Positions 1,686 to 43,485 of a stretch of DNA of 64,000 nucleotides are shown here, one piece after another. The position numbers and the translations under genes were made by a program. A model generated the notes under the pieces. It saw only the letters and a list, made by a program, of their open reading frames with translations. It made no database searches and was not told the origin of the DNA. The stretch is from Eledone cirrhosa (taxonomy: Eukaryota): assembly GCA_964016885.1 (NCBI GenBank), contig OZ024763.1:26040001-26104000 (forward strand). Reading direction: 5' to 3'. Each line of letters opens with the position of its first letter. Position 1 is the stretch's first letter.

Positions 1686-1947
1686 GGGTGTTAATTGGAA
1701 AGACTAAACAGTGAGATAAAGTGACGAGGTTCAATCTCGACCAAGAATTACACAAGGTTATTTTAAACCAGAAATTATTATGTCGTTGTTGTTGCTGTAA
1801 ATGTGTAGTCAGGGTTTCAATCCTTAGCAGGGTTTGTAGAGTTACATTTATGTAATTATTAACAAATAAAAACAGATTTATATAGCGATGTTGTACGTTC
1901 AAATAAAACACACACACACATATATATATAAATATTTATATATTATA

Positions 1948-2257: not shown

Positions 2258-2325
2258 CTGTTATTGTTACGGTGGCCTACTGGGGGTTATTAGAGACGGT
2301 GGAGGACCTGGTTTGGTTTTCAATG
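2258..2325 (+). ncRNA. Candidate Pol III small RNA, class I, copy a (degenerate)
   Basis: GTTACGGTGGCCTACTGGGGGTTATTAGAGACGGTGGAGGACCTGGTTTGGTTTTCAAT. Upstream is ATAGAAAGTAGTTTCATATATATTAAATTTCA, like the other copies. The B box is damaged. Confidence 0.4.
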
Positions 2326-2394
2326 AAGACATACGTTAAGGGGTCTTACTTTTCCCTTTTATAAGAGAAAAAAATGTAAGATTTAGTGAGATTA

Positions 2395-2470
2395 TATCCT
2401 GATTCAGATCGAACTCACGACCAGGAACGGATTCACCTCTAATACATACCACTGGGTCACCAAAACGGAT
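2395..2470 (-). ncRNA. Candidate Pol III small RNA, class I, copy b
   Basis: Minus: ATCCGTTTTGGTGACCCAGTGGTATGTATTAGAGGTGAATCCGTTCCTGGTCGTGAGTTCGATCTGAATCAGGATA, with T7 at 2374-2368. Convergent with copy a. Confidence 0.45.
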
Positions 2471-14476: not shown

Positions 14477-14661
14477 TCTCTGGTTCAATCGAGGGGGAAA
14501 CCACAGTAGGTAAAGTACTCAATACATTAGTAGAGTATATACAAAATATAATATAGAAATAGCTTCTTCAGGACTAGAAATATTTCATTCGAAGGAAATC
14601 ATCAGGAAAGCCCCGATTTCCTTGAAATGAAAGTTCTAGTCCTGTAGAAGTCATTTCTATA

Positions 14662-15127
14662 TCATTCTGTTGACAAAGGGTTTCTCCCTACGAACGAAAA
14701 GCCAGTTATATGATGCTTGTGTGAGATGGGTAGCAACTGCGGAGGATATGCGACGGCTGGAGAGAAATGAATCAAGCATGCTCCGTTGGATGTGCAATGT
14801 CAGTGTGTGTGAACGACCAAGTATAGACGAGTTGAAAAAGAAACTGGGTATAAGAGGGATAAGTTGTGGTGTGCAGGAGAGAAGACTGCGATGGTATGGA
14901 CATGTGATGCGCATGGAGGATGACCGCTGGGTAAAGAAGTGCCAAGAAATCCCAGTAGAAGGAAGATGCAGTAGAGGAAGACCACGAAAATCATGGGCGG
15001 GAGTGGTGAGAGCTGACCTCAGATCGCTGAAACTCACAGATGACGACGAAGGACAGTGACGATGGAGAGATGCTGTGCTGAATAGGACCCGTCCCACCCT
15101 TGCAAGCAGGAAAACTCAGACGTATGA
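14662..15127 (+). mobile_element. 5'-truncated RTE-clade LINE (ORF2 C-terminus and 3' UTR)
   Basis: KGFSLRTKSQLYDACVR..MRRLERNESSMLRWMCNV..RRLRWYGHVMRM..VEGRCSRGRPRKSW, the diagnostic RTE C-terminal motifs. Confidence 0.9.
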
Positions 15128-16857: not shown

Positions 16858-16907
<50 letters not shown>

Positions 16908-16909
<2 letters not shown>

Positions 16910-17135
16910 GCACGTGGCCTAGTGGTAAGGGTCTTGGACTTACAATCATAACATCGTTGTTTCGATTCCTGGGTTCTGTGTTGTGTTCTTGAGCAAAACA
17001 CTTCATTTCACGTTGCTCCAGTAAACTCAGCTGAAAATGAGTACCAACAATAGATGGGGGTTTAACCCTGCGATGGACTGGCGCCCTGTCCAGGGTGGAG
17101 TCTTGTACTCTCAGTCGTTTCACGCCATAATGCAT
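16908..17135 (+). mobile_element. tRNA-derived SINE, family 2 (CORE/Meta/V-like central domain)
   Basis: A box GTGGCCTAGTGG, B-box-like TTTCGATTCC, core TTCTTGAGCAAAACACTTCATTTCACGTTGCTCCAGT, then CCCTGCGATGGACTGGCGCCCTGTCCAGGG. Confidence 0.85.
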
Positions 17136-20537: not shown

Positions 20538-21014
20538 ATTATAAATACTTATATACACACAAGCTTAAACAGGTATACATACGTACGCTTATCTAGACTC
20601 GTACGTACATAAACGTTTATAAATAAAAGCCGAAGCTGATAAAAAGAACATAGCTTACCATATCGAATTTGGAAGGATGCACATAACGTTGCTTCAACAT
20701 GGTCCCATCATCATTTGCTGATACAATTATTGCATACGCAACACAAGTTTAAAGGGCTATCTCTTTAGAAACCATCAAGCCAGGCCACCATCTAGACACT
20801 GAGGTATGACAGTTGAAGGACATCAGGTGGTTATAGCATCAAATCAAACCTAAAGAGATAAAAATAAAATCATGATATATTTTCTGAAAACTACAGAATA
20901 GTAAAAGACATGTCGACACCTTTGCGGTATTAATAAGACTGAGAAAGGTATGAACGCCACCACGTCAATTAAGCTTCGAAAATAGAAAGTAGGTTTATAT
21001 ATCTATTAATTTTC

Positions 21015-21400: not shown

Positions 21401-21995
21401 TAGATTTTTCAGCAATTAACTAGGGAACAGAATGTTTTATTATTTCTATTATCCGTCTCCCTTTTTTGCTTCACCATGGTTAGCCATCTTTCAATTCATA
21501 TTCATACATATTCACAATTCTTCTGTGAGGGGTATAAGAAGCTCGTTTTTTGCTCCACATTCGATACCAAATCATGCTTCCTTTTTATAACTTCGTTGTA
21601 CAAATATAATAATTAAAGTATATATATATATAAGCAATGTATATATATATAGCTTCTTATTAACTCTTTCTCGAAACATTTATTTCTTCAAAATAACGTA
21701 AGACATATCCCGAAAAATAGTGTAAGGTGTCTCAATAATTATTCCATTTCAATCAATTTCTCATTTCAGTTTTCTTTAAAAATATCTTGGCGTTGAAGAT
21801 TTGTCCTCATAGTAATTAGCTTGTCTCAAAATTGTTCGCAGTGTTTCCATGTTTAGTGTCACAAACTATCGTTAATTCATGATTTTGCTCTAATGTAATA
21901 AATGTTACTTTTAAAAGAGTGAAGCTCTCAATTTTTTCTTTCTCTTCTATATTGATATCTAATGAATGACAAATGTATGTGTTATGTGATAGGAG

Positions 21996-22088
21996 AAAAA
22001 ACACACAGCCTTCTTCCCTCGCTATAGAAGGCTAACTGACAATGTCGTTCGTAGGAGTAACAAGTCACCTCTTACTGCCTTTTATATA
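21996..22088 (-). ncRNA. Candidate small-RNA gene, class II, copy 2 (internally deleted)
   Basis: TATATAAAAGGC at 22088(-), 3' hairpin AGCCTTCT-ATAGCGAGGGA-AGAAGGCT, then T6. Confidence 0.3.
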
Positions 22089-22465
22089 CCATGTTAACTG
22101 GAACGACTTTCCAAGTATGGATATACACTCTCTCCTTATCAATATTGTCCGAGTCCGAGGACATTTTCTCTCTGGTTAAGGAGTGAGAAGAAATATTAGG
22201 GATCAATCTCTAGCAATAATTTAATTAAATTATATTTAACCAAAGCTGTTATGTCGTGGTTGTTGTTATATTTTATAGTCGTGGTTTCAATGTTTATGAG
22301 GGGTTGTAGAATTAGTTTTATCTAATTATTATCAAACAAAAATGATGTATATATTGTCGTTGTACGTTGAAATCACATATATAGATTTATATACACACCA
22401 AGGATGGAGGGAAGACGGAATTGAAAACCATTATTGCTGAGCACAACATTGCAGGATCAAATATA

Positions 22466-22498
<33 letters not shown>

Positions 22499-22724
22499 AT
22501 CGGGTATGACCATTGATGAATGTCCCTGCAGATCATCAGGTTGTAGGATGAAATCAACCCTAGAGAAATGATAAGGTATATTTTACGGAAGCTCGCGAAG
22601 AATAAAGATGAAAGTGAACCATTTTGAATTAATATCATTGGGAAAGCCATGAAGGCCACTACATCAATTTTTCTTTTAAATAGAAAGTAGGTTTATAAAT
22701 TTTAATTTTGATAGTAATTTTGTA

Positions 22725-22821
22725 GTTGTCGCGGTAGCCTATTGGTAGGTGTTGGGACAGTGGTGATGCTGGTCTGGGGTTCAATCTCAGTCAGGAATCT
22801 CTCGAGAAATTTAATTTTTTT
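22725..22821 (+). ncRNA. Candidate Pol III small RNA, class I, copy c
   Basis: TATAAA at ~-31. GTTGTCGCGGTAGCCTATTGGTAGGTGTTGGGACAGTGGTGATGCTGGTCTGGGGTTCAATCTCAGTCAGGAATC, with T7 at 22815. Confidence 0.55.
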
Positions 22822-22842
22822 AAATTTTTCATAAAATGAACG

Positions 22843-22933
22843 AAAATAGAGGTTGCAGGAATCTGATTGAGATCGAACCCCAGACCGGCATCTCCAGCAC
22901 CTCTAATACTTACCACTAGTCTACGGAGGCGGT
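22843..22933 (-). ncRNA. Candidate Pol III small RNA, class I, copy d
   Basis: TATAAA starts at 22963 (-30). ACCGCCTCCGTAGACTAGTGGTAAGTATTAGAGGTGCTGGAGATGCCGGTCTGGGGTTCGATCTCAATCAGATTCC, then T4. Confidence 0.55.
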
Positions 22934-23017
22934 TATAAAACTTAGTGAAAATTAATATTTATAAACCTACTTTTTCAATTTTTTATAAAAACAAAATTTC
23001 AGTACAAGGTTTTCATG

Positions 23018-23093
23018 TACACCTGACAGAGATCGAACCCCTAATCAATATCACCACTGTCTCTAATGTCTACCACTAGACCACTGAGACAGT
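23018..23093 (-). ncRNA. Candidate Pol III small RNA, class I, copy e
   Basis: TATAAA starts at 23124 (-31). ACTGTCTCAGTGGTCTAGTGGTAGACATTAGAGACAGT is a hairpin with two perfect stems, followed by GGGGTTCGATCTC. T4 tracts lie near 22990. Confidence 0.6.
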
Positions 23094-23189
23094 TATGAAA
23101 TCGTAATGAAAATTAATATTTATAAACTTACTTTTTAATGGTTTTTTATTTTAGAAGAGGTAAACTAAAACTTAATAATACCCATAGTG

Positions 23190-23265
23190 TAGAACCAGAT
23201 AGAGATTGAACCCTAGACCAGGATTTCACCGTTTCTAATACATACCACTGGGCCAGAGAGAATGT
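23190..23265 (-). ncRNA. Candidate Pol III small RNA, class I, copy f
   Basis: TATAAA starts at 23295 (-30). TGGCCCAGTGG A box, GGGTTCAATCTC B box, T4 at ~23168. Confidence 0.5.
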
Positions 23266-24474
23266 ACGAATTCGTAGTGAAAATTAATATTTATAAAACT
23301 ACATTTTGTTCGGTTGAAAACTCGATGTAGTGGCATTCATGGCTTTTTCGGGACGTCCTTGAATTCATAAAGTAAATCTAGACTTTATTTCTCATTGCTC
23401 TAGGCTTGATTTGAACCTACAACAACTCCGTCTGCAATAATGTCATACCTCATTCCAGCTTAGTACGTTGTACCCGTAAATTGTTAAACGTGGTTCCTAT
23501 ATGTACATGCAAGTAAGATTTGAACCTACAATGCTGTGCTTAATTTCTATTAATAAGTGTGTTTTATAAAAGAAAGTAAAGAAACAATTTAATGAAAGTA
23601 AAAAATTTATTTTATTCAGGAATGTTTTTTTTTTATTTTATGTATTCACTTCATTAACTGCTGAATAGTTCTCTTGTTTTTGTTTGTTCTTACCATTGTT
23701 TACTGTAAATGGTGACTGTGACTAGACTGGATTATTACCAAGTTTTACTGGAAGATGGCATTTCCTTATTTTGTTGTCAGTGGACATCTCTCTAAATACC
23801 TGGAATAAACATATGGTGTGTCTTTTACGTAACATTTCATTTAATATCTGATGTTCCAATGGATTACTTTTAAAATAAAACCAATAAACAGGACAGGTAG
23901 ACTCCATCAAAAGAGACCAGAGATGAGGTACGAATAATCTAAAATTAATTTTTAAAAAAGACAATGTTTAAAGAAAGACATACATTAAAAAAGGATTTCC
24001 AACAAACACGTAAAGACAAAGACAATCACATCCACAATTTAATATCTGAAGATCAACATTTTTCACGATATAAATAAAACTAAATATGTAAAGTTAAGTG
24101 ACCTCTCATTTATTTGCTCTAACTTTATTTTACTAATCTGTATTCTGTAGACATATTTTCGTTGGTGTACATTACGATTTCGTTGATGAAAGTTTTCACT
24201 CGTCTTTAGATCTTTATTTCTTATAAAAGTTATAATACTCACCTCCTCTCATTAGATCTCTATTTTACTTCTGGAATACTGTATTAACATTTATATTTTC
24301 ATCTCGATATTATTAAGTATTAAGATTGCCATGTATTACAATACAGTATATAAACAAGGGAATATGAGGAGGGGTAATCATTTAAAAACAGCTAACCCCA
24401 CACTCTGTGTATTTAGATTACACCAGGGTGTCCCATGGGCGATTTCATATATACATACACACATATATATACAA

Positions 24475-24740
24475 GTTATTGATTACAGAGTCGAGCTAGA
24501 TCGATACAGAACGAACCTTAAGCTGATGAATAGCGAAACGCGCGCCACGAACCAATAAACGTAATGAAGGTGTACCCATTCGTCCTTGTTTTATTATATA
24601 TTAAAACATATTAATTAATTTATTTATTTATTTATTTATTTCCACCTGGAGTTTCGACCGATAGTTATTATTAGCAATTGGAAAGACCAATGAAAACATT
24701 GTTTCGTCGGTCCGATCTGACGAAGGTCGATCGACTGTCT
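24475..24740 (+). mobile_element. Penelope-like pLTR fragments with minimal hammerhead-like motifs
   Basis: CTGATGAATAGCGAAACGCGCGCC followed by AATAAA (24523-24558), and CTGACGAAGGTCGATCGAC near 24717. Mostly absent from the paralogous blocks. Confidence 0.5.
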
Positions 24741-26487
24741 ATATATATATATACATACCCATACATTCATATTTACTCAATTCTATGTAAATATACATAC
24801 ATATTAAAAACAGATACCATATACCAGCTTAAAAACGATTGACTAATCATCAGGACACATGCTTGCTCTTGTTAAAATTTCACAGAGATACTTATGAAAA
24901 CCGAACTTGCAAGGCCACGTACACTTACATACACACACCTGTACATACACAGACGTATAGAAAAGGTATGACTTATATAGGTACATCAAAGTTAATGTTC
25001 CACTATGGTACCATTCGAGGGAGATAAAACGAAGTACCAGTGTAGTACTGGGGTCGATTCTTCTTCTATATCTCTTTCTTACTTCCTTTCTCCTACTTTC
25101 TCTCCTTCTCTGGTAAATATCTCCTGTGATCAGATCTAGGGAAGAGATGAGATCAGTTAGCTTTTACAAAGTACCCAAGACACACCGAATATCAACGTGG
25201 GGTCACCAAGACTCCCTCGCAAGCTATACGTCCCTAGATACAAACATAGCAACATCAGACAGATCCTTTATGTAGATCACTTTTACTCGATGATGGAAGA
25301 CAAGTTTTCAGTGAGTCAGAAAGGAATATTTGCGATATGAAGGGAGAACCTCTCTGAATAAATATTAGATAGTTAAGATGCTACGTAAAGCAGGCGGTGA
25401 CAACATCGAGGACCAGAGATGCCATGTGGAAATAGATATCGACATATAAATATACAAAGCTAGGGGGACCTTATCATCATAGACACTTGGGCTTATGAAT
25501 ACATACATACATACCCACACTCACGTATGTGTGTATGTATGTATGTAAGTGTGGCTCCTGCAGGACTAGAACGGTTTCATTCGGAAGAAATCAAGGGCTT
25601 TCCTGATGATTTTTTTCCGAATGAAACAGTTCTAGTCCTGTAGAAGCCATTTCTATATTAAATATTATTTATTAAGTATTTATACCCTGCTATGTAATGA
25701 GTACCTTACTTACTGTGGTTACCGCCGATTGAACCCGGGATAAACATATATATATATATACGGGTGCACAGGTGTACGGTGTCCTCAAGTTAACACTAAG
25801 GATTACGCTCGATGTCCCGTCACACATCACTACATCTTCGAGTAAATGTTGATTAGTAAATAAACCGTGTACCTCACATGTAAGAGGAAAACTATAGCAA
25901 GTGTTGAGGATAAGAGACGTGTGAAAATAATAATAATAATAGTGTTACAATTATTAATAGTAGTAGTTGTAATAATAAAGTGAGAGGGGCAAACATTATT
26001 GTACACACAAGCTTACACAGGTACACATTCGTACACGTATCTACACACGTACCTACATAAACGTTTATAAATAAAAGACGAAGCTGATAAAAAGAACATA
26101 TATTACCGTATCGCGTTTTGAACGATACACTTGACGTTGAGTTCTTGAATCTGATCCGATCATCGGTTGCTGATACCGTTATTGCACACACAACACAAGT
26201 TTAAAGTGCCGCCTGTTTAGAAACAATATTTTCAGGCCATCATCTACTCACCAAGGTATGACAGTTGAAGAACATCACTGGATATCAGCTGGTCGTTGGA
26301 TGAAATAAACCTAGTGATAAGAATAAATGTCATGATATATTTTCTGAAAAACTTCAGGAAAGTAAAAACCATGTCAACTCGTTTGTGGGATTAATAAGAC
26401 TGAGAAAGCCATGAACACCACCACGTCAATTAAGCTTCTAAAATAGAAAGTAGGTTTACATACATTAATTTTCAGTATATTTTTTTA

Positions 26488-26597
26488 GCCGTCTCGTTTG
26501 CCTATATGTAGGTGATTATATAGATCCTGGCCAAGATCGAAACCCAGCCCAGGACCTCCACCGTCTCTCATACCTGCCACTAGGCTACAAAGACAGC
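26488..26597 (-). ncRNA. Candidate Pol III small RNA, class I, copy h (26523-26597, -) fused to truncated copy g (26488-26516, +)
   Basis: TATAAA starts at 26629 (-32). GCTGTCTTTGTAGCCTAGTGGCAGGTATGAGAGACGGTGGAGGTCCTGGGCTGGGTTTCGATCTTGGCCAGGATC. Confidence 0.5.
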
Positions 26598-28307
26598 TTC
26601 AAAATAATATTAAAAAATTAATATTTATAAACATACTTTTGATTTTGGAAGATTAATTGAAGTGGTGGCGTTCATGCCTTTCTTAGTGTTGCTGTTATTA
26701 GAAAGGGTCGACTTTGTCTTTCATAATTCAGGGTCTTTCATGAAGTAAATATTCATTTTATTTCTTAACGTCCTAGTATTGATTTGAACCTACAATAACT
26801 TCGTCTGCAATAATGTTCACTAAGTTCAAATCTGCCATACCTAAATCCTGTGTGCGACTTACAAATAAATTGTTAAATGTCACTTTTATATATTTATCAA
26901 TGTAAGATTGGAACCTACAGTGATGTGTTTTGCAGTAATATCCCGTAACTCCAACTAGATTGAGCTAAGCTTATATATTTCTTTCGTCCGAACAACATAA
27001 TGGTTTCGATCCCAGTTCGCTCCTGGTACAAGAAATAATTTAAAGAAATTCTATATCCCCAGCTAAATATTGAACTCCTAACGACATTTTATGTTACTTA
27101 ATACCAATAACCCTGTTACACACTGAACATCTAAGCCCTGAACACACATTTATATTTATAACTCAATTTCCAATTTTTTAAATGATATTACACCACCTTT
27201 GTGTTCTAGGTGAAAATCCTGCCGATATTAATTTACAATTTTATAACTTTAGAGAAGAAAAATAGAGTACCAGTCATTTTATGGGTTCAAATTAATCGAT
27301 CGGCTTCACCCCGTCAATCACTTGACATTTGCCAAACAAAAACACACAAACAGTATATATATATATATAATACGACAAATTTGAAATAAATTCCGTGTTT
27401 AATTAAGAAAAAAATTATTGAAAGTAAGAAATTATAATTATTTAGTAATAATATTTTTATTGTTTGTTTTCACTGCATTAACTGCTGAGTGTGACTTTTA
27501 ATTTTCTTACTATTTTCTACTGTAAATGGCAGCTGAGATGTTATTGGATTATTACTAAGGTTTACTGGATGATGTCGTTTCCTTATTGCATAATTTGACA
27601 AACAGTGGACATCGGAATATCCCTCTATATACCTGGGATAAATGTAAGGAACATTGTTATGTTATACATAGTACAATGGTCATCTCTTCTATTTACATTT
27701 TCTTCCCCAATTCTGTATTTTAAATATTTCTATCATGTCACTCGTTTGATTAATCTCCTCCAAAGTTGTAATTCTATGTGTTTGTCCTTGGTATAGTGAA
27801 CTAATGTTGATATTTTCAAGTCTTGGTATTTATATGGAATAGTGTACTAATATTTAAATAGTCTTTATATTTTTGTCTTGTCTCCCCTAAGATTTATCTC
27901 CTCTAAATTTACAAAAGTTTCTCATCTTCCTTCACAAGACAGATCCCTAAATAATTCTAGTGTCTTCTGTTTTCTTCTTCTCTGGGTTGCTTCAAGAGCC
28001 TCACCGTTTTTTCAGATGTCAGTTGACCATGGCCCAAAACAATATTCTCAGTGGTATCACACATATTCATCTAGAGTTTTAGATTTTTCAGCATTTCGCT
28101 AGGAAAAAGAATGTTTTATTATTTCTATTATCCGCCTCGCTGTTTTGCTTCAACATGGTTAGTCATCTTTCAATTCATATTCACAATTCTTCTGTGAGGG
28201 GTATAAGAAGCTCGTTTTTGCTCAACATTCGATACCAAAACAGGTTTCCTTTTTATACCTTCGTTGTACAAATATAATAATTAAAGTAGATATATATACA
28301 AGCCATG

Positions 28308-28354
<47 letters not shown>

Positions 28355-28704
28355 CTGCTTATTAACTCTTTCCCGAAACATTTCTTCAAAATAAGGTAAG
28401 ACATATCCCGAAAAATATTATAAGGTGTCTCAATAATTATTCCATTTCAATCAATTTCTCATTTCAGTTTTCTTTAGAAATGTCTTGGCGTGGAAGATAG
28501 ATACATTTGTCCTTCTCATAGTAATTAGCTTGTCTCAAAATTGTTCGTATTGTTTCCATGTTTAGTGTCACAAACTATCGTTAATTCAAGATTCTGCTCT
28601 AATGTAATAAATGTTACTTTTAAAAGACTGAAGCTCTCAATTTTTTCTTTCTCTTGTAAATTGATATCTAAAGAATAACAAATGTATGTGTTTTGTGATA
28701 GGAG

Positions 28705-28813
28705 AAAAAAACCACAGCCTTCTTTCCTCGCTATAGAAGGCTAACTGACAATGTCGTTCGTAGGCGTGACAAGTACACAACAACAGTGGTCACCTCTTAC
28801 TGCCTTTTATATA
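28705..28813 (-). ncRNA. Candidate small-RNA gene, class II, copy 3
   Basis: TATATAAAAGGC, then ...CATTGTCAGTTAGCCTTCTATAGCGAGGAAAGAAGGCTGTGG-T7. Confidence 0.33.
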
Positions 28814-29717
28814 CCATGTTAACTGAAAAGACTTGCAAAGTATGGATACACGCTCTCCTTCAATAGATTCTCTATTATTTCGGAGGTCGGGTGACCAAAC
28901 CCCCAAACAATATTCGAAGTGGTATCTCACCATTTTATTTAGCTAGGCAAAGGAGGTATATCTATCTGCTGTGTTTTCTTTAACACGCTTAACCACCATT
29001 AAATTTAAATGTATATATATATATTCCCAATTCTTGGGGGAGGGGAATAAAAGATCATTTTAACTTCATAATTCGATATAAAAACCTGCTTGCGTTCTAT
29101 ATAGTGAAGGTAATTATAAACCTCATTTGGTCATTCCATGAGAGTATCTTTGTCAGCCTGTGAAGGAGTGATGCTAGAGTTGTGAAATCTTACAAGCATT
29201 AATTGCAGCTCTTCATATTAATAACTACGTGTTTCTTTCCAGGGTCTATGTCGTATTATAAACCTCATGAGGTCATTCCATGAGAGTATCTTGGTCAGAC
29301 TATGAACTTTTCAGTAGACACTCGTAATTAGAGCTACATATTAACTCTTCCCTCAAAACAGTTTTTCTTTAAAATAAAGTGAGATTTATATTCCGAAAAA
29401 TATGTAAAGTATCTGTAATATTTCCAAATCAATAAATTTCTCATTTCGATTTTCAGTATATTGTATTATACCGTTGAAAATGTTAATTGTCCTTCTTCTG
29501 AAATAAATCAGTTTGTCTCCAAATGATTCGTATTGTTGTTTCCTCCATTCGACGTATCTCGTCACAAACTCTGACGTTTCTACAACATTTCCAAACGTTA
29601 ATACAACATTAGCTCTAATGAAATAGATGGGACTTTTTAAACACTGACATTTTCATTTCGCTTCTTTCTTTTGTATGTTGTTATCTAATAGATATAAAAG
29701 TGTATGTGATAAGAGAG

Positions 29718-29835
29718 AAAAACCACGATCTTCTTTCGACGTTGTAGGAGGCTGTCAGAGTGTTTAGCAGGAGCGGTAACTACACGGCAACGGTGAACAT
29801 CACGTGTTAAGTCACAAGAGACAGCTATTTATATA
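29718..29835 (-). ncRNA. Candidate small-RNA gene, class II, copy 4
   Basis: TATATAAAT at 29835(-). ACACGTGATGTTCACCGTTGCCGTGTAGTTACC...AGCCTCCTACAACGTCGAAAGAAGATCGTGG-T5. Confidence 0.35.
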
Positions 29836-30509
29836 CCGCGTTAACTGGGAATACGTACCAAACCAGGATGCACTCCTCTGTCCCCTTCAACATTCTCAGA
29901 GCTTCATTCCTCCCAGTGTTATTGCTACTAGAAAGGGTCGACCTTGTCTTTCCTCACTCTGCGGTTTTAGGAAAGTAAATCTGGATTTTGTTTATCATCG
30001 CTCTAGAGTTGATTTGAACCTACATTAACACCGTTGACAATACTGCTCGATAACCTCTAATCTGTCATACCTGTGTGTGTTATCGATTCCAGCCTAGTGC
30101 GACGTATTTATTTGTCAAACCTGATCCCTATATAGATAAATACTATATGTAAATGTACAATATTTGAACCTATAATGATGTGCTTTACAGAAATGTCATG
30201 TAACATCAACTAGATGGAACTATGTATATGTTTGTTTTTGTTCATTAAAATAATTAAAGTCAACTCTATATTCCTTACTAAAGATTGAACTCCTGACACC
30301 ACCTTACAATCTCAACGAAGTATTAAAATTTCTATTTATTATTTCTAACCTCACCTCTTTGTATTCTCGATGTAAATCCTGGCGAGATTAATTTTCAATT
30401 TTTATTTTTGGAGCAGATAAAACATAATACCAGTCAAATAATGGAATCAATTAAATCGATTGGCTTCACTTAAATGTCTGCCCTTTTGCCTGAATATATA
30501 TATAATATG

Positions 30510-30768
30510 GTATTCCGTCAGTTACGACGGTGAGTGTTCCAGTTGACTCGATCAACAGAACAACCTGTTCGTGAAAGTGATTAAGCATTCTACAGAAATG
30601 TTTACCCTTACCGTAGTTCTCAGGGAGATTCAGTTTGAAACAAAGAAATGGCCGACTCTGCGACTTACACGTTTATGCCAGCTTTGATTGAACGATGGGA
30701 AATGAAGTGTCTTGCTCAAGATAACACACGATTATGAACCGAATACCATAACTTTTAAACTACGCGCA
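30510..30768 (-). mobile_element. Degenerate tRNA-derived SINE with CORE-like domain
   Basis: Minus strand GTGTTATCTTGAGCAAGACACTTCATTT, as in the family-2 core, with a distinct 3' tail ending GTCGTAACTGACGGAATAC. Confidence 0.6.
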
Positions 30769-31199
30769 GAGAGAGAGAGATTAACCAGAAATATATTTTG
30801 ATAATGGAAAAGGATTTTTTTTATTCAACAAGTCTTTAGATATTTTTGCAATGAAAAAAGGAAGAAAAAAAATAAATTTACGAAATGAGTATTATTCAGT
30901 TTTATTTTTGTATATTTTTACTGCATTAACTGCGGCGGATGTGTTTTGTTTGTTTTTTCTTAGTATTGTCTGTTAATGGCGATTGCGGTGAAATTTGAAA
31001 AAAGTCACTCGAAGGTAAAGCCAATCATTGTCACAATTTAATGCCTGAACTTCAATATTTTCATGATGTAGTTAAAATTTCATAACTTGAATTTATTGAA
31101 CTCCGATTTGATTTCTCATAAATGTTTTAATAGTGCATATTCTGCTTAGATATTTTCGATGTTGTACATTACGATTTTGTTGACATTATCTGAGGTCTT

Positions 31200-31305
31200 T
31201 AGGCCGAGGTTAACTTTGCCTTTCATCCTTACGGGCTCGATAAACTAAAGTACCAGTAATGCACTGGGGTAATTGCTGGTCTTGTGCCAAAAGTAGAAAC
31301 AATTA
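31200..31305 (+). mobile_element. Family-1 SINE 3' fragment
   Basis: GCCGAGGTTAACTTTGCCTTTCATCCTTACGGG..AAAGTACCAGT. Confidence 0.8.
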
Positions 31306-32962
31306 TCTCTTATAAGCAGTATAATGGCGTGTTCCTCCTCTCATATTTACATTTTCTTCTATAATACTGTATTGTCATATTTTCAAGTCCATCTTTTTAA
31401 ATATTTCTTTCGTGTACTCAAGATTTTATTTCTAGTACATATCTTGAAGAATTCTTCCGTTTATTGATAAATGTTTCAGAAAAAATATTTTCTAGTGTCT
31501 TCCGAGTATTTTTATACGCAGTAAAATGGTGATCCCTCCTCACGGTTATGTTTCCTTTTGGAATACTGTACTTTCATTATTTTAAATATATATATATATC
31601 TTCAGTTTGACTTATTTCCTCTATAATTGTATTTCCTACAGTGTTTACATTAGAGTAGTGTACTAGTATTTATATTTTCAAGACTTTACATTTATCTGGA
31701 ATAATGTAATATTTCATGGCTTCCCTTAGCTTTCACTCCTCTAGTGTTGGGATTTCTTAATTATTCTGGTCTTTTATATTTTTTCTTGTCTGGATTCCTT
31801 CAATATCTTCTGTTCTTTCGGAAGTCGTGAGACACGGCCTCCAAAACAATATTTTAAGTGGTATCTCTCATTTCATTTAGCTAGAGTTTAAAGTTTACCT
31901 GACTTTACACAAGTTAAGAAATATTTTATTATTCCTATCATCTGACTTGCTGTGTTTTCTTTAACATAGTTAGCCACCTTTAAATTCAAATTCATACATA
32001 TTCCCAATTCGTTGGGGGAGGGGTATAAGAGGCGCCTCTTTATTTTACAATTCTTTGCCGAAACCTTGTATTTTGTACATTCGATGTACGAACATAATTA
32101 AAACATATATACATGCCATGAATAAATATAGCTGTGTATATATGCATATTAACTCCTCCCCGAAATATTTTATATTTCTATCATGCTCCCCCCTTTTTTT
32201 TTTAAAGTTACAATTCCTATGTTTTCCATCTTCACAAGACATTTCTTAATATTTCTGGTATGTTCTTTAGTTTCCTTCAATAATTTCTGATTCCTTTCGG
32301 TGGTGTTTCACCTATTTATCTACAGTTATAACACGTTTCTCTAAATAAAGGAAGGTTTTATTATATCTATCGTCCAACTTGCTGTGTTCGTCTTTAACAT
32401 TCTTATCCACTTCAAAATTAAAGATTTACACATTTCCGTTTTTTGTTGGGTGGAGTGAATAATAGGGGCATTGTAACCTCAAAATATCGATGTGGAAACC
32501 TGCTTGTATCTTAAACACTCAACATACCAATATGATAAATATATGTATGTTTACAAAAGCCATGTATAAGTATACCTGCACATTAACTCTTATCCAAACA
32601 TTTGTTTTTCAAAATATGGTGAAACATATTCCGATAAATACTGCTACTTGTCTTTGTAAGTGTTTCTTTTCAATGAATTTTTCATTTCAGTTTTCAGCAG
32701 ACAGTACTGGCGTTGAAGATGCAATAAATTGTCCTTATTATAATCACCAGTTTATCTCAAATTCGTCTGTTTTATTACTTTGTCCATTCCACGTTTAGTG
32801 TTACAAACTCTGACGTTTCTACACCAATTTTCTATCGTTAATTCTTGATTGTATTTTAATGTAATAAAATATTTCTTTTCAAATATTTACTTTCTCACGT
32901 TAATTCTTTCTCTTGTGTATTGTTATCTAATGAATAAAAATATATATGATATGCGAGAGAGG

Positions 32963-33089
32963 AAAAATGACACGACCTTCCTTCATCGCTGCAGGAGTCC
33001 AACTGGCAATGAACTGACCATGAGAGGCAAGTACTCGACAACAGTGAACATCACATGTTTGGTGTAAGGAACACACTACCACTTATATA
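32963..33089 (-). ncRNA. Candidate small-RNA gene, class II, copy 5
   Basis: TATATAAG at 33089(-). ACATGTGATGTTCACTGTTGTCGAGTACTTGCC...GCCAGTTGGACTCCTGCAGCGATGAAGGAAGGTCGTGTCA-T5. Confidence 0.35.
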
Positions 33090-33725
33090 CTGTGGTAAAT
33101 GGAAAGCCGAGTCAAACCTTATCAACATTCTCAGAGACCCTTTTCTCCCTTATGAAGCAGTGAAATAAAGAATTGCAGGGGAATTATTTTTTAACAGGAG
33201 ACTGATATGTCGTGGTTGTTGTTATAATATGTAGTTAGGGTTTCAATCTTCAGCTGGGATTGTAAAATTACTTTTATTAACTAAAAACATCAAAAAAGAA
33301 TATAGCGTCCTTGTACGTTCAAACTGAAGAGGCATTATTGCCAACACATCACTGTAAGATCAAATCTAATACACAAACACACACATATATATATATATAG
33401 ATTGAGGGATGACAGAACTGAAGAGGCATTATTGCCAATACATCACTGTAGTATCAAATCTAACACACTCACATGTATATATTTAGTAATCAGGTATGAC
33501 CAATGAAGGTCGTTAGTGGAGATCATCTGGTTGTGGCATCAAATCAACCCTGGCTAAATGAGATATCAAATCAAGATTTATTTTATCAAAGCCTCAGAAG
33601 AATAAAAATCAACGTCAACCCTTTATAGTATTAATTCGACTGAGAAAGGCATGAACACCACCACGTCAATTAAGCTTGGAAATAGAAAGTAGGTTTATAA
33701 ATATTAATTTTCACCCTGTTTTTAT

Positions 33726-33798
33726 ATCCGTCTCGGTGGCCTATTGGTAGGTGTTAGAGATGTCAAAGATCTTGCCCAGGCACTACAAAGTTTTTTTT
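33726..33798 (+). ncRNA. Candidate Pol III small RNA, class I, copy i (B box deleted)
   Basis: TATAAA at 33696. CCGTCTCGGTGGCCTATTGGTAGGTGTTAGAGATG, then T8 at 33791. Confidence 0.45.
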
Positions 33799-33824
33799 CT
33801 TTTTGTTTTTTCATAAGAAAAATG

Positions 33825-33910
33825 AAAAAATAGCGGATTCTGGTCAAGATTGAACACCTGACTAGGATCACCACCGTCTCTAACACTTACCATTAAGCCA
33901 CCGAGACAAC
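33825..33910 (-). ncRNA. Candidate Pol III small RNA, class I, copy j
   Basis: TATAAA starts at 33941 (-31). GTTGTCTCGGTGGCTTAATGGTAAGTGTTAGAGACGGTGGTGATCCTAGTCAGGTGTTCAATCTTGACCAGAATCCGCTA-T6. Confidence 0.6.
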
Positions 33911-35039
33911 TACACAAACAGACTGAAAATTAATATTTATAAACCTACTTTCTATTGCGAAGCTTAATTGATGTAGTGGCGTTCATGGCTTTCTCAATAT
34001 TATTAATACTACAAAAAGGGGTCGACATTAATTTTTATCCGTCTGGGACTTTCACGAAATATATTTTGATTTGGTTTCTCATTTCTCTAGGGTTCATTTG
34101 ATCTTATATCCAGATGATCTGCAGTGTCGTTATTCAATGGTCATACATTTTTCTTCAGCCACTTCTTCCTGTGAGGGTTGTGGAGACAGAGCCCTCAAAC
34201 ACTCCTTCCAGCGGGTCCTGTCAGAAGCAACCGATGTGTGTGTATGTTAGATTTGATCCTAGGTGGCGTTCAAGACTTTCACAGTATTATTGGTACTAGA
34301 AAGGGTCGACCTTGTCTTTCATCCCTCTGGGGCTTCCATAAAGTAAATCTTGCTTTTGTTTATTATCGATCTAGGGTTGATTTGAAATTCTATTGACTCC
34401 ATCTGTAGCATTACTCAATAACTTCAAATCTGTCATACCTCATTTCCATGTGTGTGTGTCTCTGTGTGATGTGTCGGTAAATTGTCAAACCTAATTCCTA
34501 CATAGATAGATATGTGTACATATGTAAGATTTGAAACTACAATGATGTGAGTTAAAGTAATGGCGCTATGTATATGTAGTGTTTCCTCCATTAAAAAATA
34601 ATTAAAAGCAATTCTATATCATCCAAGTGAAAGATTGAACTCCTGACAAAACCTTACGCTACATAACACCAAAACTACATCACATACTTAACTACTAAGC
34701 CACCGACATACATAGATATTCGTATATCAAAATAAAGTATTAAAACGTCAATTTTTAATTTTTAAATAACATTAGACCACCTTTGTGTTTTCAGAGCAGA
34801 TACTATGGACATTAATTTTGAATTATATGTTTTGAGAGCAGATAAAATAAAGTACCAGTTACATACTGGGATCGATTTAATACAGAGTCTTGTCTCCGGA
34901 AATTCTTGGATATGAGCTTATATGTTCGTGAATAAATATAAGTAAAAATTTATAAATACATGCCTGTATGTATTTATAAATACATACATACGTACGTACG
35001 TACGTACGTATGTATGTATGTATGTATGTCAAGTCAGGT

Positions 35040-35310: not shown

Positions 35311-35538
35311 GGTATCCAATGATGTTGATTTGTTCTTCTTTTTGGTAAATATCATCTTGGTTAAGAGAGTGGGACTGGATTTGTGCAGTGCCTTTGCTCA
35401 CTATAAAAGCTTCACGGCACAGGCATTGCTTTTATATCTGGAGATCTCTCTGCACTTGTCGTCACATGGTAGCATGGGCCCAGCACAATGTGTCAATAAT
35501 TGTCACAAGTTTAGTGTTGTACCAGAGTTTTCAAGTCG

Positions 35539-35630
35539 TATATATATGTACATATATATATATATATTATAATATGCACATATATATATATATATATATA
35601 CTACGGTATATATATATATATATATATATC

Positions 35631-35669
<39 letters not shown>

Positions 35670-38146
35670 CTATGATATATATATACATATATATATGATA
35701 TATATATACATATATATATGATATATATATACTTATATATATACATATATATATATATGATATATATATAACATATATATATGATATATATATACATATA
35801 TATACATATATGATATATATGATATATATATACATATATGATATATATGATATATATATACATATATGATATATATGATATATATATATACATATATATA
35901 TATGATATATATATACATATATATATATGATATATATATACATATATATATGATATATGATATATATATACATATATATATATGATATATATATACATAT
36001 ATATATGATATATATATACATATATATGATATATATATACACATATATATATGATATATATATACATATATGATATATATACATATATATATATGATATA
36101 TATATACATATATATATGATATATATATACATATATATATATGATATATATATAATATATATATATGATATATATATACATATATATATATGATATATAT
36201 ATACATATATATGATATATATATACATATATATATGATATATATATACATATATATGATATATATATACATTATATATATGATATATATATACATATATA
36301 TATATGATATATATATACATATATATATATGATATATATATACATATATATATGATATATATATACATATATATATACACATATATATATATGATATATT
36401 TATACATATATATATATGATATATATATACATATATATATATATGATATATATATACATATATATATATATGATATATATATACATATATATATATGATA
36501 TATATATATATATATATATGATATATATATTTACATATATATATATATGAATATATATACATATATATATATGATATATATATAATATATATATGATATA
36601 TATATATATACATATATATATATGATATATATATATACATATATATATATATGATATATATAATACATATATATATATGATATATATATATACTATATAT
36701 ATATGATATATATATACATATATATATATGATATATATATACATATATATATATATGATATATATATACATATATATATATATGATATATATATACATAT
36801 ATATATATGATATATATATACATATATATATATGATATATATATACATATATATATGATATATATATACATATATATATATGATATATATATACATATAT
36901 ATATATGATATATATATATACATATATATATATGATTTATATATACATATATATATACGATATATATATACATATATGTATATGATATATATATATATAT
37001 ATATGATATATATATATACATATATATATATGATATATATATACATATATATATATGATATATATATACATATATATATATGATATATATATACATATAT
37101 ATATATGATATATATATACATATATATATATATGATATATATATATACATATTATATATGATATATATATATACATATATATATATGATATATATATACA
37201 TATATATATATGATATATATATACATATATATATATGATATATATATATACATATATATATATGATATATATATATACATATATATATATGATATATATA
37301 TATACATATATATTATATATGATATATATATACATATATATATATGATATATATTATACATATATATATATGATATATATATATACATATATATATATGA
37401 TATATATATACATATATATATGATATATACATATATATATATGATATATATATACATATATGATATATATATACATATATATATATGATATATATATATA
37501 TATGATATATATATACATATATATATGATATATACATATATATATATGATATATATATACATATATGATATATATTTACATATATATATATGATATATAT
37601 ATATATATGATATATATATATATATATATATATGATATATATATATATATATATGATATATATATACATATATATATATATGATATATATATACATATAT
37701 ATATATGATATATATATACATATATATATATGATATATATATACATATATATATATGATATATATATGATATATACATATATATATATGATATATATATA
37801 TCATATATATATATATACATATATATATATGATATATATATACATATATATATATGATATATATACATATATATATATGATATGTATATACATATATATA
37901 TATGATATATATATACATATATATATATGATATATAAATACATATATATATGATATATATATACATATATATATGATATATATATACATATGTATATGAT
38001 ATATATACATATATATATATGATATATATATACATATATATATACGATATATATATACATATATATATACGATATATATATACATATATATATACGATAT
38101 ATATATACATATATATATACATATACATATATATATATATACATAC

Positions 38147-38239
<93 letters not shown>

Positions 38240-38377
38240 CATATATATACATATATATATACATATATATATATACATATATATATACATATATACATAT
38301 ATATATATACATATATATATATATACATATATACATATATATATATTAAATACATATATATATATATACATATATAC

Positions 38378-38408
<31 letters not shown>

Positions 38409-38751
38409 CATATATACATATATATATGTATACATATATACATATATATATATATACATATTATATATTATACATATTATATACCTATATATATATATAC
38501 ATATATATATATATACCTATATATATATATATACCTATATATATATATATATACCTATATATATATATACATATTATATATATATACATATATATATATA
38601 TACATATATATATACATATATATATATATACATATATATACATATATATATATATACATATATATACATATATATATATACATATAGATATATACATATA
38701 TATATACATATATACATATACATATATACATATATATACATATATACATAT

Positions 38752-38820
<69 letters not shown>

Positions 38821-38821
38821 C

Positions 38822-38868
<47 letters not shown>

Positions 38869-38931
38869 TGATATATATATACATATATATATGATATAAT
38901 ATACATATATATATATATGATATATATATAC

Positions 38932-38977
<46 letters not shown>

Positions 38978-39001
38978 GATATATATATACATATATATAT
39001 G

Positions 39002-39051
<50 letters not shown>

Positions 39052-39362
39052 GATATATATATACATATATATATATCATATATATATATATGATATATAT
39101 ATACATATATATATATATGATATATATATACATATATATATACATATATATATATGATATATATATACATATATATATATGATATATATATACATATATA
39201 TATGATATATATATATACATATATATATAATGATATATATATATACATATATATATATGATATATATATATACATATATATATATATCTACATATACATA
39301 CATATATATATATATGTACATATATATAATATACATATATATACATATACATATATACATAT

Positions 39363-39395
<33 letters not shown>

Positions 39396-39410
39396 TATAT
39401 ACATATATAC

Positions 39411-39442
<32 letters not shown>

Positions 39443-41071
39443 GATATATATATACATATATATATGATATATATATACATATATATATACACATATATAT
39501 ATATGATATATTTATACATATATATATATATGATATATATATACATATATATATATGATATATATATACATATATATATATATGATATATATATACATAT
39601 ATATATATGATATATATATACATATATATATATGATATATATATATACATATATATATATGATATATATATATACATATATATATATATGATATATATAT
39701 ATACATATATATATATGATATATATATATACATATATATATATGATATATATATACATATATATATATGATATATATACATAATATATATATGATATATA
39801 TATACATATATATATGATATATATATACATATATATATATGATATATATATACATATATATATATGATATATATATACATATATATATATGATATATATA
39901 TACATATATATATATGATATATATATACATATATAATATGATATATATATACATATATATATATGATATATATATACATATATATATATGATAATATATA
40001 TATACATATATATATATGATATATATATACATATATATATACGATATATATATACATATATGTATATGATATATATATATATATATATGATATATATATA
40101 TATACATATATATATGATATATATATACATATATATATATGATATATATATACATATATATATATGATATATATATACATATATATATATGATTATATAT
40201 ATACATATATATATGATATATATATATACATATATATATATGATATATATATACATATATATATGATATATATATACATATATATATATGATATATATAT
40301 ATACATATATATATATGATATATATTATACATATATATATGATATATACATATATATATATAGTATATATATACATATATGATATATATATATACATATA
40401 TATATATGAAATATATATATATATGATATATATATACATATATATATGATATATACATATATATATATGATATATATATACATATATGATATATATATAC
40501 ATATATATATATGATATATATATATATATGATATATATATATATATGATATATATATATATATATATATGATATATATATATATATATATGATATATATA
40601 TACATATATATATATGATATATATATACATATATAATAAGATATATATATACATATATATATATGATATATATATACATATATATATATATGATATATAT
40701 ATGATATATACATATATATATATGATATATATATACATAATATATATATATATACATATATATATTATGATATATATATACATATATATATATGATATAT
40801 ATATACATATATATATATGATATATATATACATATATATATATGATATATATATACATATATATATATGATATATATATACATATATATATATGATATAT
40901 ATATACATATATATATGATATATATATACATATATATATAAATGATATATATATACATATATATATGATATATATATACATATATATATATGATATATAT
41001 ATACATATATATATACGATATATATACATATATATTACGATATATATATACATATATATATATACATATAC

Positions 41072-41160
<89 letters not shown>

Positions 41161-41259
41161 CATATATATACATATATATATACATATATATATATACATA
41201 TATATATATATACATATATACATATATATATATACATATATATATATATACATATATAC

Positions 41260-41290
<31 letters not shown>

Positions 41291-41372
41291 CATATATACA
41301 TATATATATATATACATATATATATATATTACATATATACATATATACATATATATATGTATACATATATAC

Positions 41373-41403
<31 letters not shown>

Positions 41404-41633
41404 CATATATATATACCTATATATTATATACATATATATATATATACCTATATATATATATACATATATATTTATATACATATATATATATATACATATA
41501 TATATACATATATATATATATACATATATATACATATATATATATACATATATATACATATATATATATACATATAGATATATACATATATATATACATA
41601 TATACATATACATATATACATATATATACATAT

Positions 41634-41710
<77 letters not shown>

Positions 41711-41711
41711 C

Positions 41712-41748
<37 letters not shown>

Positions 41749-41853
41749 TGATATATATATACATATATATATGATATATATTATACATATATATATATGA
41801 TATATATATACATATATATATATATGATATATAATACATATATATATATCATA

Positions 41854-41884
<31 letters not shown>

Positions 41885-42516
41885 GATATATATATACATA
41901 TATATATATGATATAATATACATATATATATATGATATATATACATATATATATATATGATATATATATACATATATATATATCATATATATATATATGA
42001 TATATATATACATATATATATATATGATATATATATACATATATATATACATATATATATATGATATATATATACATATATATATATGATATATATATAC
42101 ATATATATTATGATATATATATACATATATATATATGATATATATATATACATATATATATGATATATATATATACATATATATATATGATATATATACA
42201 TATATATATACATATATATATATATCTACATATACATCATATATATATGTACATATATATATATATATATACATATTATACATATACATATATACATATA
42301 TACATATATACATATATATATATATACATATACATATAATATATATACATATACTATATACATATATACACATATACATATATACATATATATATATATA
42401 CATATACATATATATACATATACATATATACATATATACATATATATATATATACATATATACATATATATACATATATACATATATACATATAATACAT
42501 ATATATATATATATAT

Positions 42517-42561
<45 letters not shown>

Positions 42562-42578
42562 TACATATATATATATAT

Positions 42579-42611
<33 letters not shown>

Positions 42612-42995
42612 TATATACATATATATATACATTATATATATATATACATATATACATATATATACATATATATATAATACATATATATATATATATACAT
42701 ATATACATATATATACATATATACAATATATAAATATACATATATATATATACATATATATACATATATACATATATATATATATAAAAACAAATAACGA
42801 AACGAAATTAAATTTCGTTTCGTTTTTTAACTTAATTGTTATATATATATACATATATATACATATATATATATATACATACATATATATATTATACATA
42901 CATATATATATACATACATATATATATATATATACATATATATATACATACATATATATACATATACATATATATATATATACATATATATATAA

Positions 42996-43070
<75 letters not shown>

Positions 43071-43085
43071 TACATATATATATAT

Positions 43086-43148
<63 letters not shown>

Positions 43149-43232
43149 CATACATATATATATATACATATATACATATATATATATATACTATACATAT
43201 ATATATATATACATATATATAGATATTATACA

Positions 43233-43314
<82 letters not shown>

Positions 43315-43327
43315 CATATATATATAC

Positions 43328-43362
<35 letters not shown>

Positions 43363-43367
43363 CATAT
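35539..43367. repeat. Compound (TA)n satellite, ~7.8 kb (units like ATATATATGATATATATATAC and ATATAC)
   Basis: Almost entirely TA with periodic G or C. All ORFs here are Y/I artefacts. Confidence 0.99.
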
Positions 43368-43485
43368 AGAAAGATTTGAATGGATACAGTTTAGTTGAAA
43401 GGAATTTATTGACACGTGTTTCTGTAACAGTTACATAACCTAAAACAGCTATCTACAAACTTTTAGTTATGCAGACATTCAATAT

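What the first reader, a model, noticed from the sequence alone, without database searches (positions are those of the whole stretch)
22725..33910. Compensatory substitutions preserve hairpin 1 of the class I RNA
Seen in the outer stem: consensus ACCGTCTC/GAGACGGT becomes ACTGTCTC/GAGACAGT (copy e), GCCTC/GAGGT (d), GCTGTCTT/GAGACGGT (h, all Watson-Crick or G-U) and GTTGTC/GACAGT (c). Seen in the inner stem: GCCTA/TAGGT becomes GTCTA/TAGAC (e) and GCTTA/TAAGT (j). Inference: several double changes among copies that are otherwise clearly diverged point to selection on RNA structure rather than neutral decay.
Basis: partly seen in the sequence, partly recalled or inferred. Interest (0 to 1): 0.7.

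Follow-up and report, generated by a model that had tools for sequence, protein, structure and literature searches.

The report
Candidate octopus small-RNA gene family
Ten related short elements in an octopus-like genome mostly carry the control signals of an RNA polymerase III gene, and their mutations tend to keep the outer stem of a first hairpin, so they are likely a partly decayed family of small structured RNA genes; expression is untested, and the paired "compensatory" changes alone are only borderline evidence.

Summary
The quoted substitutions are real, but selectively quoted. Hairpin 1 has 6 double changes at 5 of 13 pairs. One pair (copies c, e) is CpG to TpG/CpA. Mismatches in c and d were cropped, and the inner stem is broken in a, b, d, f, h. 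Double changes alone are borderline (8/500 shuffles; P 0.02-0.26 in my simulations), and the inner stem is no better kept than neutral (9/50 broken, about 10 expected). The outer stem is well supported: 9/72 cells broken against 18-22 expected (P about 0.001), with 17 G.U against 2 A.C. This survives the window's CpG rate but not a 5-fold sense-strand C>T bias. Most copies have Pol III anatomy: TATA-like block at -30 to -33, A box at +11, B box at about +55, T-run at +84 to +101. No Rfam, tRNA or vault match. Best reading (0.55): a multi-copy, birth-and-death family of tRNA/SINE-derived Pol III small RNAs in an octopod, analogous to rodent 4.5SI/4.5SH. Expression is untested, and the RNA is barely more conserved (70%) than distal flanks (66%).

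The parts
22725..22818 (+). copy c, predicted transcript to first T4; hairpin 1 at 22725-22761
   Evidence: fold z -2.23
22686..22711 (+). TATA-like upstream block of c
22843..22933 (-). copy d; outer stem 7 of 8 paired, inner stem 2 of 5 broken
   Evidence: fold z +0.65
22946..22971 (-). TATA-like upstream block of d
22993..23093 (-). copy e; hairpin 1 (23056-23093) fully paired, two double changes
   Evidence: fold z -3.16
23107..23132 (-). TATA-like upstream block of e
23167..23265 (-). copy f; hairpin 1 decayed (5 of 13 pairs broken)
   Evidence: fold z +0.73
23278..23303 (-). TATA-like upstream block of f
26488..26516 (+). copy g, 5' fragment only, abutting the 3' end of h
26449..26474 (+). 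TATA-like upstream block of g
26522..26597 (-). copy h; outer stem 8 of 8 paired (3 G.U); terminator lost, first T4 at +158 after reading through antisense g
   Evidence: fold z -2.91
26612..26637 (-). TATA-like upstream block of h
33727..33794 (+). copy i; hairpin 1 kept (11 of 13), 3' half and B box lost
33688..33713 (+). TATA-like upstream block of i
33827..33910 (-). copy j; hairpin 1 (33873-33910) fully paired, one inner-stem double change
   Evidence: fold z -2.00
33924..33949 (-). TATA-like upstream block of j
2263..2353 (+). copy a (outside the finding); outer stem 7 of 8 paired, inner stem and hairpin 2 decayed
2371..2469 (-). copy b (outside the finding); upstream block replaced by microsatellite, hairpin 1 not formed

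Best explanation
The ten elements are likely copies of a small non-coding RNA gene that would be read by RNA polymerase III, probably derived from a tRNA or a tRNA-type SINE head, and predicted to fold into two hairpins whose first outer stem has likely been kept by selection while several copies decay. Shown: a shared 26-nt TATA-containing block at a fixed distance, an A-box match at +11 and a B-box match at about +55 in the full-length copies, T-runs at +84 to +101, and an excess of pair-keeping substitutions on one strand of the outer stem. Inferred: TFIIIC binds A/B and TFIIIB sits on the TATA-like block. Pol III then makes an 84-101-nt RNA. Its 5' end is sealed in hairpin 1 (the inner stem lies where a tRNA D-arm would) and the B box is shown in the loop of a weaker hairpin 2. 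The RNA most likely acts as a protein-binding or SINE-pairing small RNA, as rodent 4.5S RNAs do. Copies arise by DNA-level tandem and inverted duplication of promoter plus gene (upstream shared, downstream not) and die by point mutation or deletion: c, e, j (and h, terminator lost) look intact; a, b, d, f, g, i look damaged.
For: Upstream block: 8 matches within 3 mismatches in 64 kb, 0 expected. TATA motif at -30 to -33 in 7 of 10 copies by regex, A box at +11, B-box core in 8 of 10 (starts of a, h, i corrected by 1-2 nt). This fits the 4.5S-type promoter in PMC10137851: TATA-like box at -31/-24, box A 11 bp from the start, box B 30-40 nt further. Identity among six copies: TATA block 413/480 (86%), spacer -13..-1 108/195 (55%), distal 66%. 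A variable stretch just upstream of +1 is the mark of active tRNA genes in PMC6130373. Outer stem: 9 of 72 cells broken against 18-22 expected, P 0.0003-0.0013 with the window's spectrum, P 0.0003-0.001 with the element's own strand-specific spectrum, P 0.009-0.016 with 3-fold sense C>T. G.U 17 against A.C 2. Sense fold is more stable than antisense in 9 of 9 copies. T.G intermediates exist for the two outer-stem transition doubles (a, h, j at 3-36; b at 5-34). Four of five double-changed pairs are not CpG. Run X1 lays 334 contigs over 22500-23600 across all identity bands, so many paralogues exist. All 17 X1 contigs at 22731 read T, which turns c's G.G into T.G; 542.5 of 745.2 depth at 22897 restores d's 2-37 pair (paralogues are mixed).
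Against: RNA identity between copies (359/511 and 155/225, about 70%) is barely above the distal upstream flank (66%), unlike tRNA-grade purifying selection. Inner stem: 9 of 50 broken against 9.7-10.4 expected, P 0.3-0.45. Double changes alone are borderline. The outer-stem signal falls to P 0.09-0.12 with a 5-fold sense-strand C>T bias, and to P 0.05-0.38 with kappa 4 and CpG x5-10. In three subsets thinned for relatedness it is P 0.014, 0.027, 0.070. Only 4 of 10 copies fold better than shuffles. Hairpin 2 is only 66.7% paired. 321.9 of 524.5 X1 depth at 22929 lacks d's C5, so d's double change may be private. The structure and ancestor were taken from the same ten copies, and the test treats copies as independent (tree unresolved, bootstrap at most 62).
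Confidence: 0.55

Rival explanations
1. The promoter matters, not the RNA. These are transcribed or TFIIIC-bound tRNA/SINE-head remnants (boundary-type elements or selfish Pol III units) that inherited a hairpin; transcription-associated C>T bias on the sense strand turns C-G into T.G and mimics structural selection.
For: The TATA block is the most conserved part (86%) and the RNA is not (70%). C>T makes up 15 of 37 outer-stem changes. A 5-fold C>T bias removes significance. PMC13034040 reports C>T-biased mutagenesis on the coding strand of tRNA genes. Extra B-box-like motifs lie in the upstream blocks.
Against: Outside the hairpin-1 stems C>T is 8 on 8 C and G>A 16 on 18 G, i.e. symmetric, against 15 on 5 C and 4 on 5 G in the outer stem. 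The element's own spectrum leaves P at or below 0.001. A>G at A-T pairs (7 cases) and three non-CpG G>A or T>C partner changes are not predicted by this bias.
Confidence: 0.25
2. Neutral decay of an amplified segmental or fold-back repeat. The double changes come from CpG deamination, shared ancestry, gene conversion or DNA hairpin-templated repair, and nothing is transcribed now.
For: Copies sit in a 3-7-kb duplicated unit as inverted pairs. Half are damaged. One double-changed pair is CpG-type. The inner stem decays at the neutral rate.
Against: CpG excess in the window is only 1.7-fold, with o/e 0.75-0.77, and octopus repeats are barely methylated (PMC9476566). Templated repair or symmetric deamination does not predict 17 G.T against 2 A.C on one strand. 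The fixed-distance TATA block with a variable spacer and the T-runs are unexplained.
Confidence: 0.13
3. A highly diverged vault RNA family.
For: Right length, boxes A and B, and clustering, as for lophotrochozoan vtRNAs in PMC8824774.
Against: No 5'-3' panhandle (mean pairing probability at most 0.04 in 9 of 10 copies, 0.15 in i). The TTACTTCG motif after box A has 5-7 mismatches of 8. No Rfam match at E 10 for j.
Confidence: 0.04

Closest known systems
Rodent 4.5SI RNA (tRNA/B2-related) and 4.5SH RNA (7SL/B1-related)
   Same: About 100-nt Pol III RNAs with boxes A and B plus a TATA-like box at -31/-24, narrow taxonomic range, kinship to SINEs. 4.5SH genes lie in hundreds of 4-5-kb tandem units (PMC10137851; PMC3440375).
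   Different: No homology is claimed (rodent only; no Rfam hit). 4.5SI pairs its two ends, while this element pairs its 5' end with positions 31-38. Copies here are about 30% diverged, in inverted pairs, and not shown to be expressed.
BC1 RNA
   Same: tRNA-derived Pol III RNA refolded into a non-cloverleaf stem-loop (seen only as a reference title and a passage; otherwise recalled).
   Different: BC1 is single-gene, with an A-rich region and a unique tail (recalled); none is seen here.
Vault RNA (RF00006, accession as cited in PMC8824774)
   Same: Length, boxes A and B, clustering.
   Different: Panhandle and post-A-box motif are absent; no Rfam match.
tRNA genes and tRNA-derived SINE heads
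   Same: A-to-B spacing as in a short-arm tRNA; the inner stem lies at the D-arm position; a SINE-like head at 16914 shares the A-box region (E 0.41).
   Different: ARAGORN finds nothing; no consistent acceptor or anticodon stem. Shared sequence lies upstream, not downstream, and there is no SINE body or tail.

Membership tests
tRNA | Cloverleaf with 7-bp acceptor stem and anticodon arm | tested here: not met
   ARAGORN 0 genes; best acceptor pairing 3-7 of 7 at inconsistent positions in 8 copies; no Rfam hit
Vault RNA | Length 80-150 nt with boxes A and B and a T-run | tested here: met
   84-101 nt in 7 of 10 copies
Vault RNA | Panhandle joining 5' and 3' ends | tested here: not met
   mean probability 0.00-0.04 in 9 copies, 0.15 in i
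Vault RNA | TTACTTCG-like motif after box A (from PMC8824774) | tested here: not met
   5-7 mismatches of 8 in 10 of 10 copies
Vault RNA | Binding to major vault protein | not testable with these tools
   needs pull-down
tRNA-derived SINE | tRNA-like head with boxes A and B | tested here: met
tRNA-derived SINE | Shared body and tail downstream, unrelated upstream flanks | tested here: not met
   copies share 45-330 nt upstream and diverge after about +76
Lineage-restricted Pol III small RNAs of the 4.5SI/4.5SH kind (analogy) | Type 2 promoter plus TATA-like box near -31/-24 | tested here: met
   against PMC10137851
Lineage-restricted Pol III small RNAs of the 4.5SI/4.5SH kind (analogy) | Genes in multi-kb repeated units, many copies | tested here: met
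   many paralogous contigs in run X1; copy number not measured
Lineage-restricted Pol III small RNAs of the 4.5SI/4.5SH kind (analogy) | Clear sequence kinship to a SINE of the same genome | tested here: inconclusive
   only the A-box region matches one SINE-like head in the window, E 0.41; no SINE library or genome available
Lineage-restricted Pol III small RNAs of the 4.5SI/4.5SH kind (analogy) | Abundant discrete transcript | not testable with these tools
   no RNA run could be laid

The most novel reading that the evidence does not exclude
Octopods independently evolved a multi-copy, tRNA/SINE-derived Pol III small RNA with its own two-hairpin fold, an invertebrate counterpart of rodent 4.5S/BC1 RNAs. 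It sits in one repeat unit with a second TATA-driven small-RNA class, and it buffers the large SINE load (by pairing or by titrating RNA-binding or editing proteins), with convergent pairs able to give long double-stranded read-through RNA.
Probability: 0.15. Interest if true: 0.8.

Novelty: new variant of a known kind. Interest (0 to 1): 0.45.

Why it matters
Lineage-restricted Pol III small RNAs are known mainly from rodents and primates, and one of them (4.5SH) guards against SINE exonization (as cited in PMC10137851). SINEs are 11.6% of the Octopus vulgaris genome (PMC13282606). An expressed, structured, multi-copy family in an octopod would be a new ncRNA that Rfam- and tRNA-based annotation misses, and a testable case of convergent domestication of a tRNA/SINE head. 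If it is not expressed, it is a modest note on a decaying Pol III-type array.

Tried and rejected
No whole genome is held, so no genome-wide copy set and no R-scape-scale alignment. Rfam: 0 hits at gathering over 64 kb. The E-value scan of 22600-23500 gave 20 weak hits, all far below gathering; the best are plant-miRNA models fitted to the c/d inverted pair, rejected. 0 hits for j; 3 chance hits for class II. Pattern scans: 0 in metagenome contigs twice, 0 in viral contigs. Sequencing runs: no RNA holder listed; this says nothing on expression. Run X6 laid 0 contigs; X4 13 and X5 16 at low depth; their organism labels are coded, so no cross-species claim is made. The CM search found no further full copy in the window: 9 strong hits, and 11 weak ones at E 0.46-4.4 including g. 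Weak profile matches to B-box arms in the upstream blocks (E 0.03-12) are not above shuffles (best shuffled E 0.055), so 'older decayed copies' is unproven. The tree of copies is unresolved, so no branch-wise event count was made. TRIM/Helenus (PMC10886601) was considered: no LTR pair, PBS or PPT was looked for systematically, and the copies are inverted rather than direct repeats; set aside. Pol III pre-miRNA (mir-1829 type, PMC12487709) was considered: hairpins of 38 and about 34 nt look too short (own knowledge); untested. Earlier scan findings: none by place or sequence, three unrelated by words.
Full report
Setting. The window is AT-rich eukaryotic DNA with microsatellites, satellites and SINE-like repeats. 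An ORF at 44009-45397, beyond a 200-N gap, is a TFIIA alpha/beta protein (Pfam PF03153, E 3.7e-29). Its two best relatives are Octopus bimaculoides and O. vulgaris proteins at 47-49% identity. My reading of the SINE repeats as cephalopod is recalled and comes from no call. I take the host as an octopod.

Observation. BLAST, nhmmer and a covariance model find ten copies, a-j: eight full length and two truncated (g, i). Hairpin 1 is an 8-bp outer stem (1-8/31-38) and a 5-bp inner stem (13-17/22-26). Double changes occur in 6 cells at 5 of 13 pairs: 1-38 in b, 3-36 in c and e, 5-34 in d, 14-25 in e, 15-24 in j. Pair 3-36 is CpG to TpG/CpA; the other four are not in CpG context. The h example has only G.U pairs. 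Only c, e, h and j fold better than shuffles (z -2.0 to -3.2; the other six -0.6 to +0.7). Hairpin 1 has probability at most 0.10 in b, d, f.

Is it more than chance? Column shuffling gives 5 double-changed pairs against 1.8+-1.1 (8 of 500) for hairpin 1 (two broken cells of i fell into gaps in that alignment) and 23 of 500 with hairpin 2 added. The RNAalifold covariation term is -0.11. I measured the neutral spectrum on seven duplicated flank pairs: 159 transitions, 197 transversions, CpG excess 1.7-fold, CpG o/e 0.75-0.77. PMC9476566 (passages) says octopus repeats are nearly unmethylated. I then kept each copy's number of stem substitutions and redistributed them under that spectrum (nine copies; g has no outer 3' strand). 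Outer stem: 9 of 72 cells broken against 18-22 expected, P 0.0003-0.0013. It is P 0.0003-0.001 under the element's own strand-specific spectrum, 0.009-0.016 with a 3-fold sense C>T bias, and 0.09-0.12 with a 5-fold bias. Under vertebrate-like settings (kappa 4, CpG x5-10) it is P 0.05-0.38. Three thinned subsets gave 0.027, 0.014 and 0.070. Inner stem: 9 broken against about 10, P 0.3-0.45. Double changes alone: both stems P 0.02-0.20 at realistic settings (0.02-0.93 over all settings), outer 0.10-0.60, inner 0.09-0.10. The outer stem holds 17 G.U against 2 A.C cells, and the sense strand folds better than the antisense in 9 of 9 copies. That favours a single-stranded sense structure over DNA hairpin repair or symmetric deamination. 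Caveats: structure and ancestor come from the same ten copies, and the test treats them as independent; the tree is star-like with support at most 62. So the outer stem is credibly constrained, mostly through wobble-keeping single changes, while the cited double changes are borderline.

What the element is. A 26-nt block with TATAAATA lies upstream of 8 copies (0 expected by chance), with the TATA at -30 to -33 in 7 of 10 by regex. An A-box match starts at +11, a B-box core lies at about +55 in 8 of 10, and the first T4 falls at +84 to +101 in 7 of 10. This is the layout given for 4.5SH/4.5SI genes in PMC10137851 (abstract and introduction). The 5'-side inner-stem changes fall on A-box positions that the consensus there leaves as Y or n. 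Identity among six copies is 86% in the TATA block, 55% in the -13..-1 spacer, 70% in the RNA and 66% further upstream. The variable spacer resembles active tRNA genes (PMC6130373, passages). The RNA itself is hardly more conserved than the distal flank, which counts against strong selection on sequence. Copies share upstream, not downstream, sequence and lie as convergent pairs (a/b, c/d, g/h, i/j) plus a 160-170-bp tandem d-e-f inside a 3-7-kb duplicated unit. They therefore spread at the DNA level, not as SINEs. In public run X1, 334 contigs align to 22500-23600 (75/56/71/132 by falling identity band), showing many paralogues (depth is no copy number). All 17 X1 contigs at 22731 read T, making c's mismatch a T.G pair, and 542.5 of 745.2 depth at 22897 restores d's 2-37 pair. 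But 321.9 of 524.5 at 22929 lack d's C5, the partner site is not among the 40 rows shown (82 hidden), and paralogues are mixed.

Mechanism. Most likely (0.55): TFIIIC on A/B and TFIIIB on the TATA-like block drive Pol III to make an 84-101-nt RNA. Its 5' end is sealed in hairpin 1, with a weaker hairpin 2 (66.7% of cells paired) carrying the B box in its loop. The family turns over by birth and death. All steps after the DNA anatomy are inferred. Rivals: promoter-only elements with C>T-biased mutagenesis mimicking selection (0.25; PMC13034040, passages), neutral repeat decay (0.13), diverged vault RNA (0.04).

Comparison. It is not a tRNA. It is not a vault RNA by the criteria of PMC8824774 (passages): no panhandle and no post-A-box motif. 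It is not in Rfam. It works like 4.5SI/4.5SH/BC1-type RNAs (PMC10137851; PMC3440375, passages) without being homologous; kinship to a local SINE is inconclusive (E 0.41). Literature searches (listings only, plus passages of PMC6962438, PMC13282606 and PMC7904556, abstract and passages of PMC10886601, abstract of PMC12487709) showed no description of such a family. Ohshima and Okada 1994 was seen only as a reference entry, and supplements and repeat libraries were not read, so it may be catalogued as an unclassified repeat.

Verdict. Observation partly confirmed; interpretation partly supported. A real, apparently undescribed candidate Pol III small-RNA family with moderate evidence for structural constraint on the outer stem and no evidence yet on expression. 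Interest 0.45.

Noticed in passing
window 1550-1707, 21969-22119, 28679-28840, 29691-29870, 32931-33120 (all - strand): A second element in five copies (71% mean column identity): conserved TATATAA box, about 85-125 nt, ending in a T-rich run, divergent from the + strand class I copies. Weak consensus fold (-2.5 kcal/mol) and no Rfam match; candidate second Pol III gene class.
   Followed up: partly
window 3410-3602, 5590-5836, 23350-23559, 26664-26937, 29911-30191, 34262-34559 (-); 20756-20961, 22437-22659, 33345-33662 (+): A shared distal upstream block with one or two B-box-like motifs precedes class I copies and one class II copy. Some blocks (3410, 5600, 20756) have lost their gene.
   Followed up: partly
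window 1728, 1807, 5981, 22277, 27082, 30297, 33233, 34647: Further B-box arms resembling the class I 3' half at matching places in the repeat unit; individually not above shuffled controls. Possibly older decayed copies.
   Followed up: partly
window 22725-22933, 33727-33910, 2263-2469, 26488-26597: Convergent pairs share a T-run/A-run spacer and would fold back into long duplexes if read through (-101.6, -79.1, -64.1, -29.0 kcal/mol); h has lost its terminator and runs into antisense g.
   Followed up: partly
window 44009-45397 +: Uninterrupted 462-codon ORF for a TFIIA alpha/beta-like factor, only 47-49% identical to Octopus proteins of 617-619 aa; it lies just after an assembly gap, so it may be 5'-incomplete or a retrocopy.
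   Followed up: partly
window 48470-64000: About 15 kb of a 45-bp satellite whose unit matches the body of the SINE-like element at 16906-17050.
   Followed up: no
window 6840-10880, 11700-13780, 35530-43370: Long GA-rich, 23-27-bp minisatellite and TA-rich arrays interrupt the duplicated unit; their ORFs are artefacts of repeats.
   Followed up: no
window 700-1100 (-) and 14660-15100 (+): Look like 3' fragments of CR1/L2-type and RTE-type LINEs; labels are recalled and were not tested.
   Followed up: no
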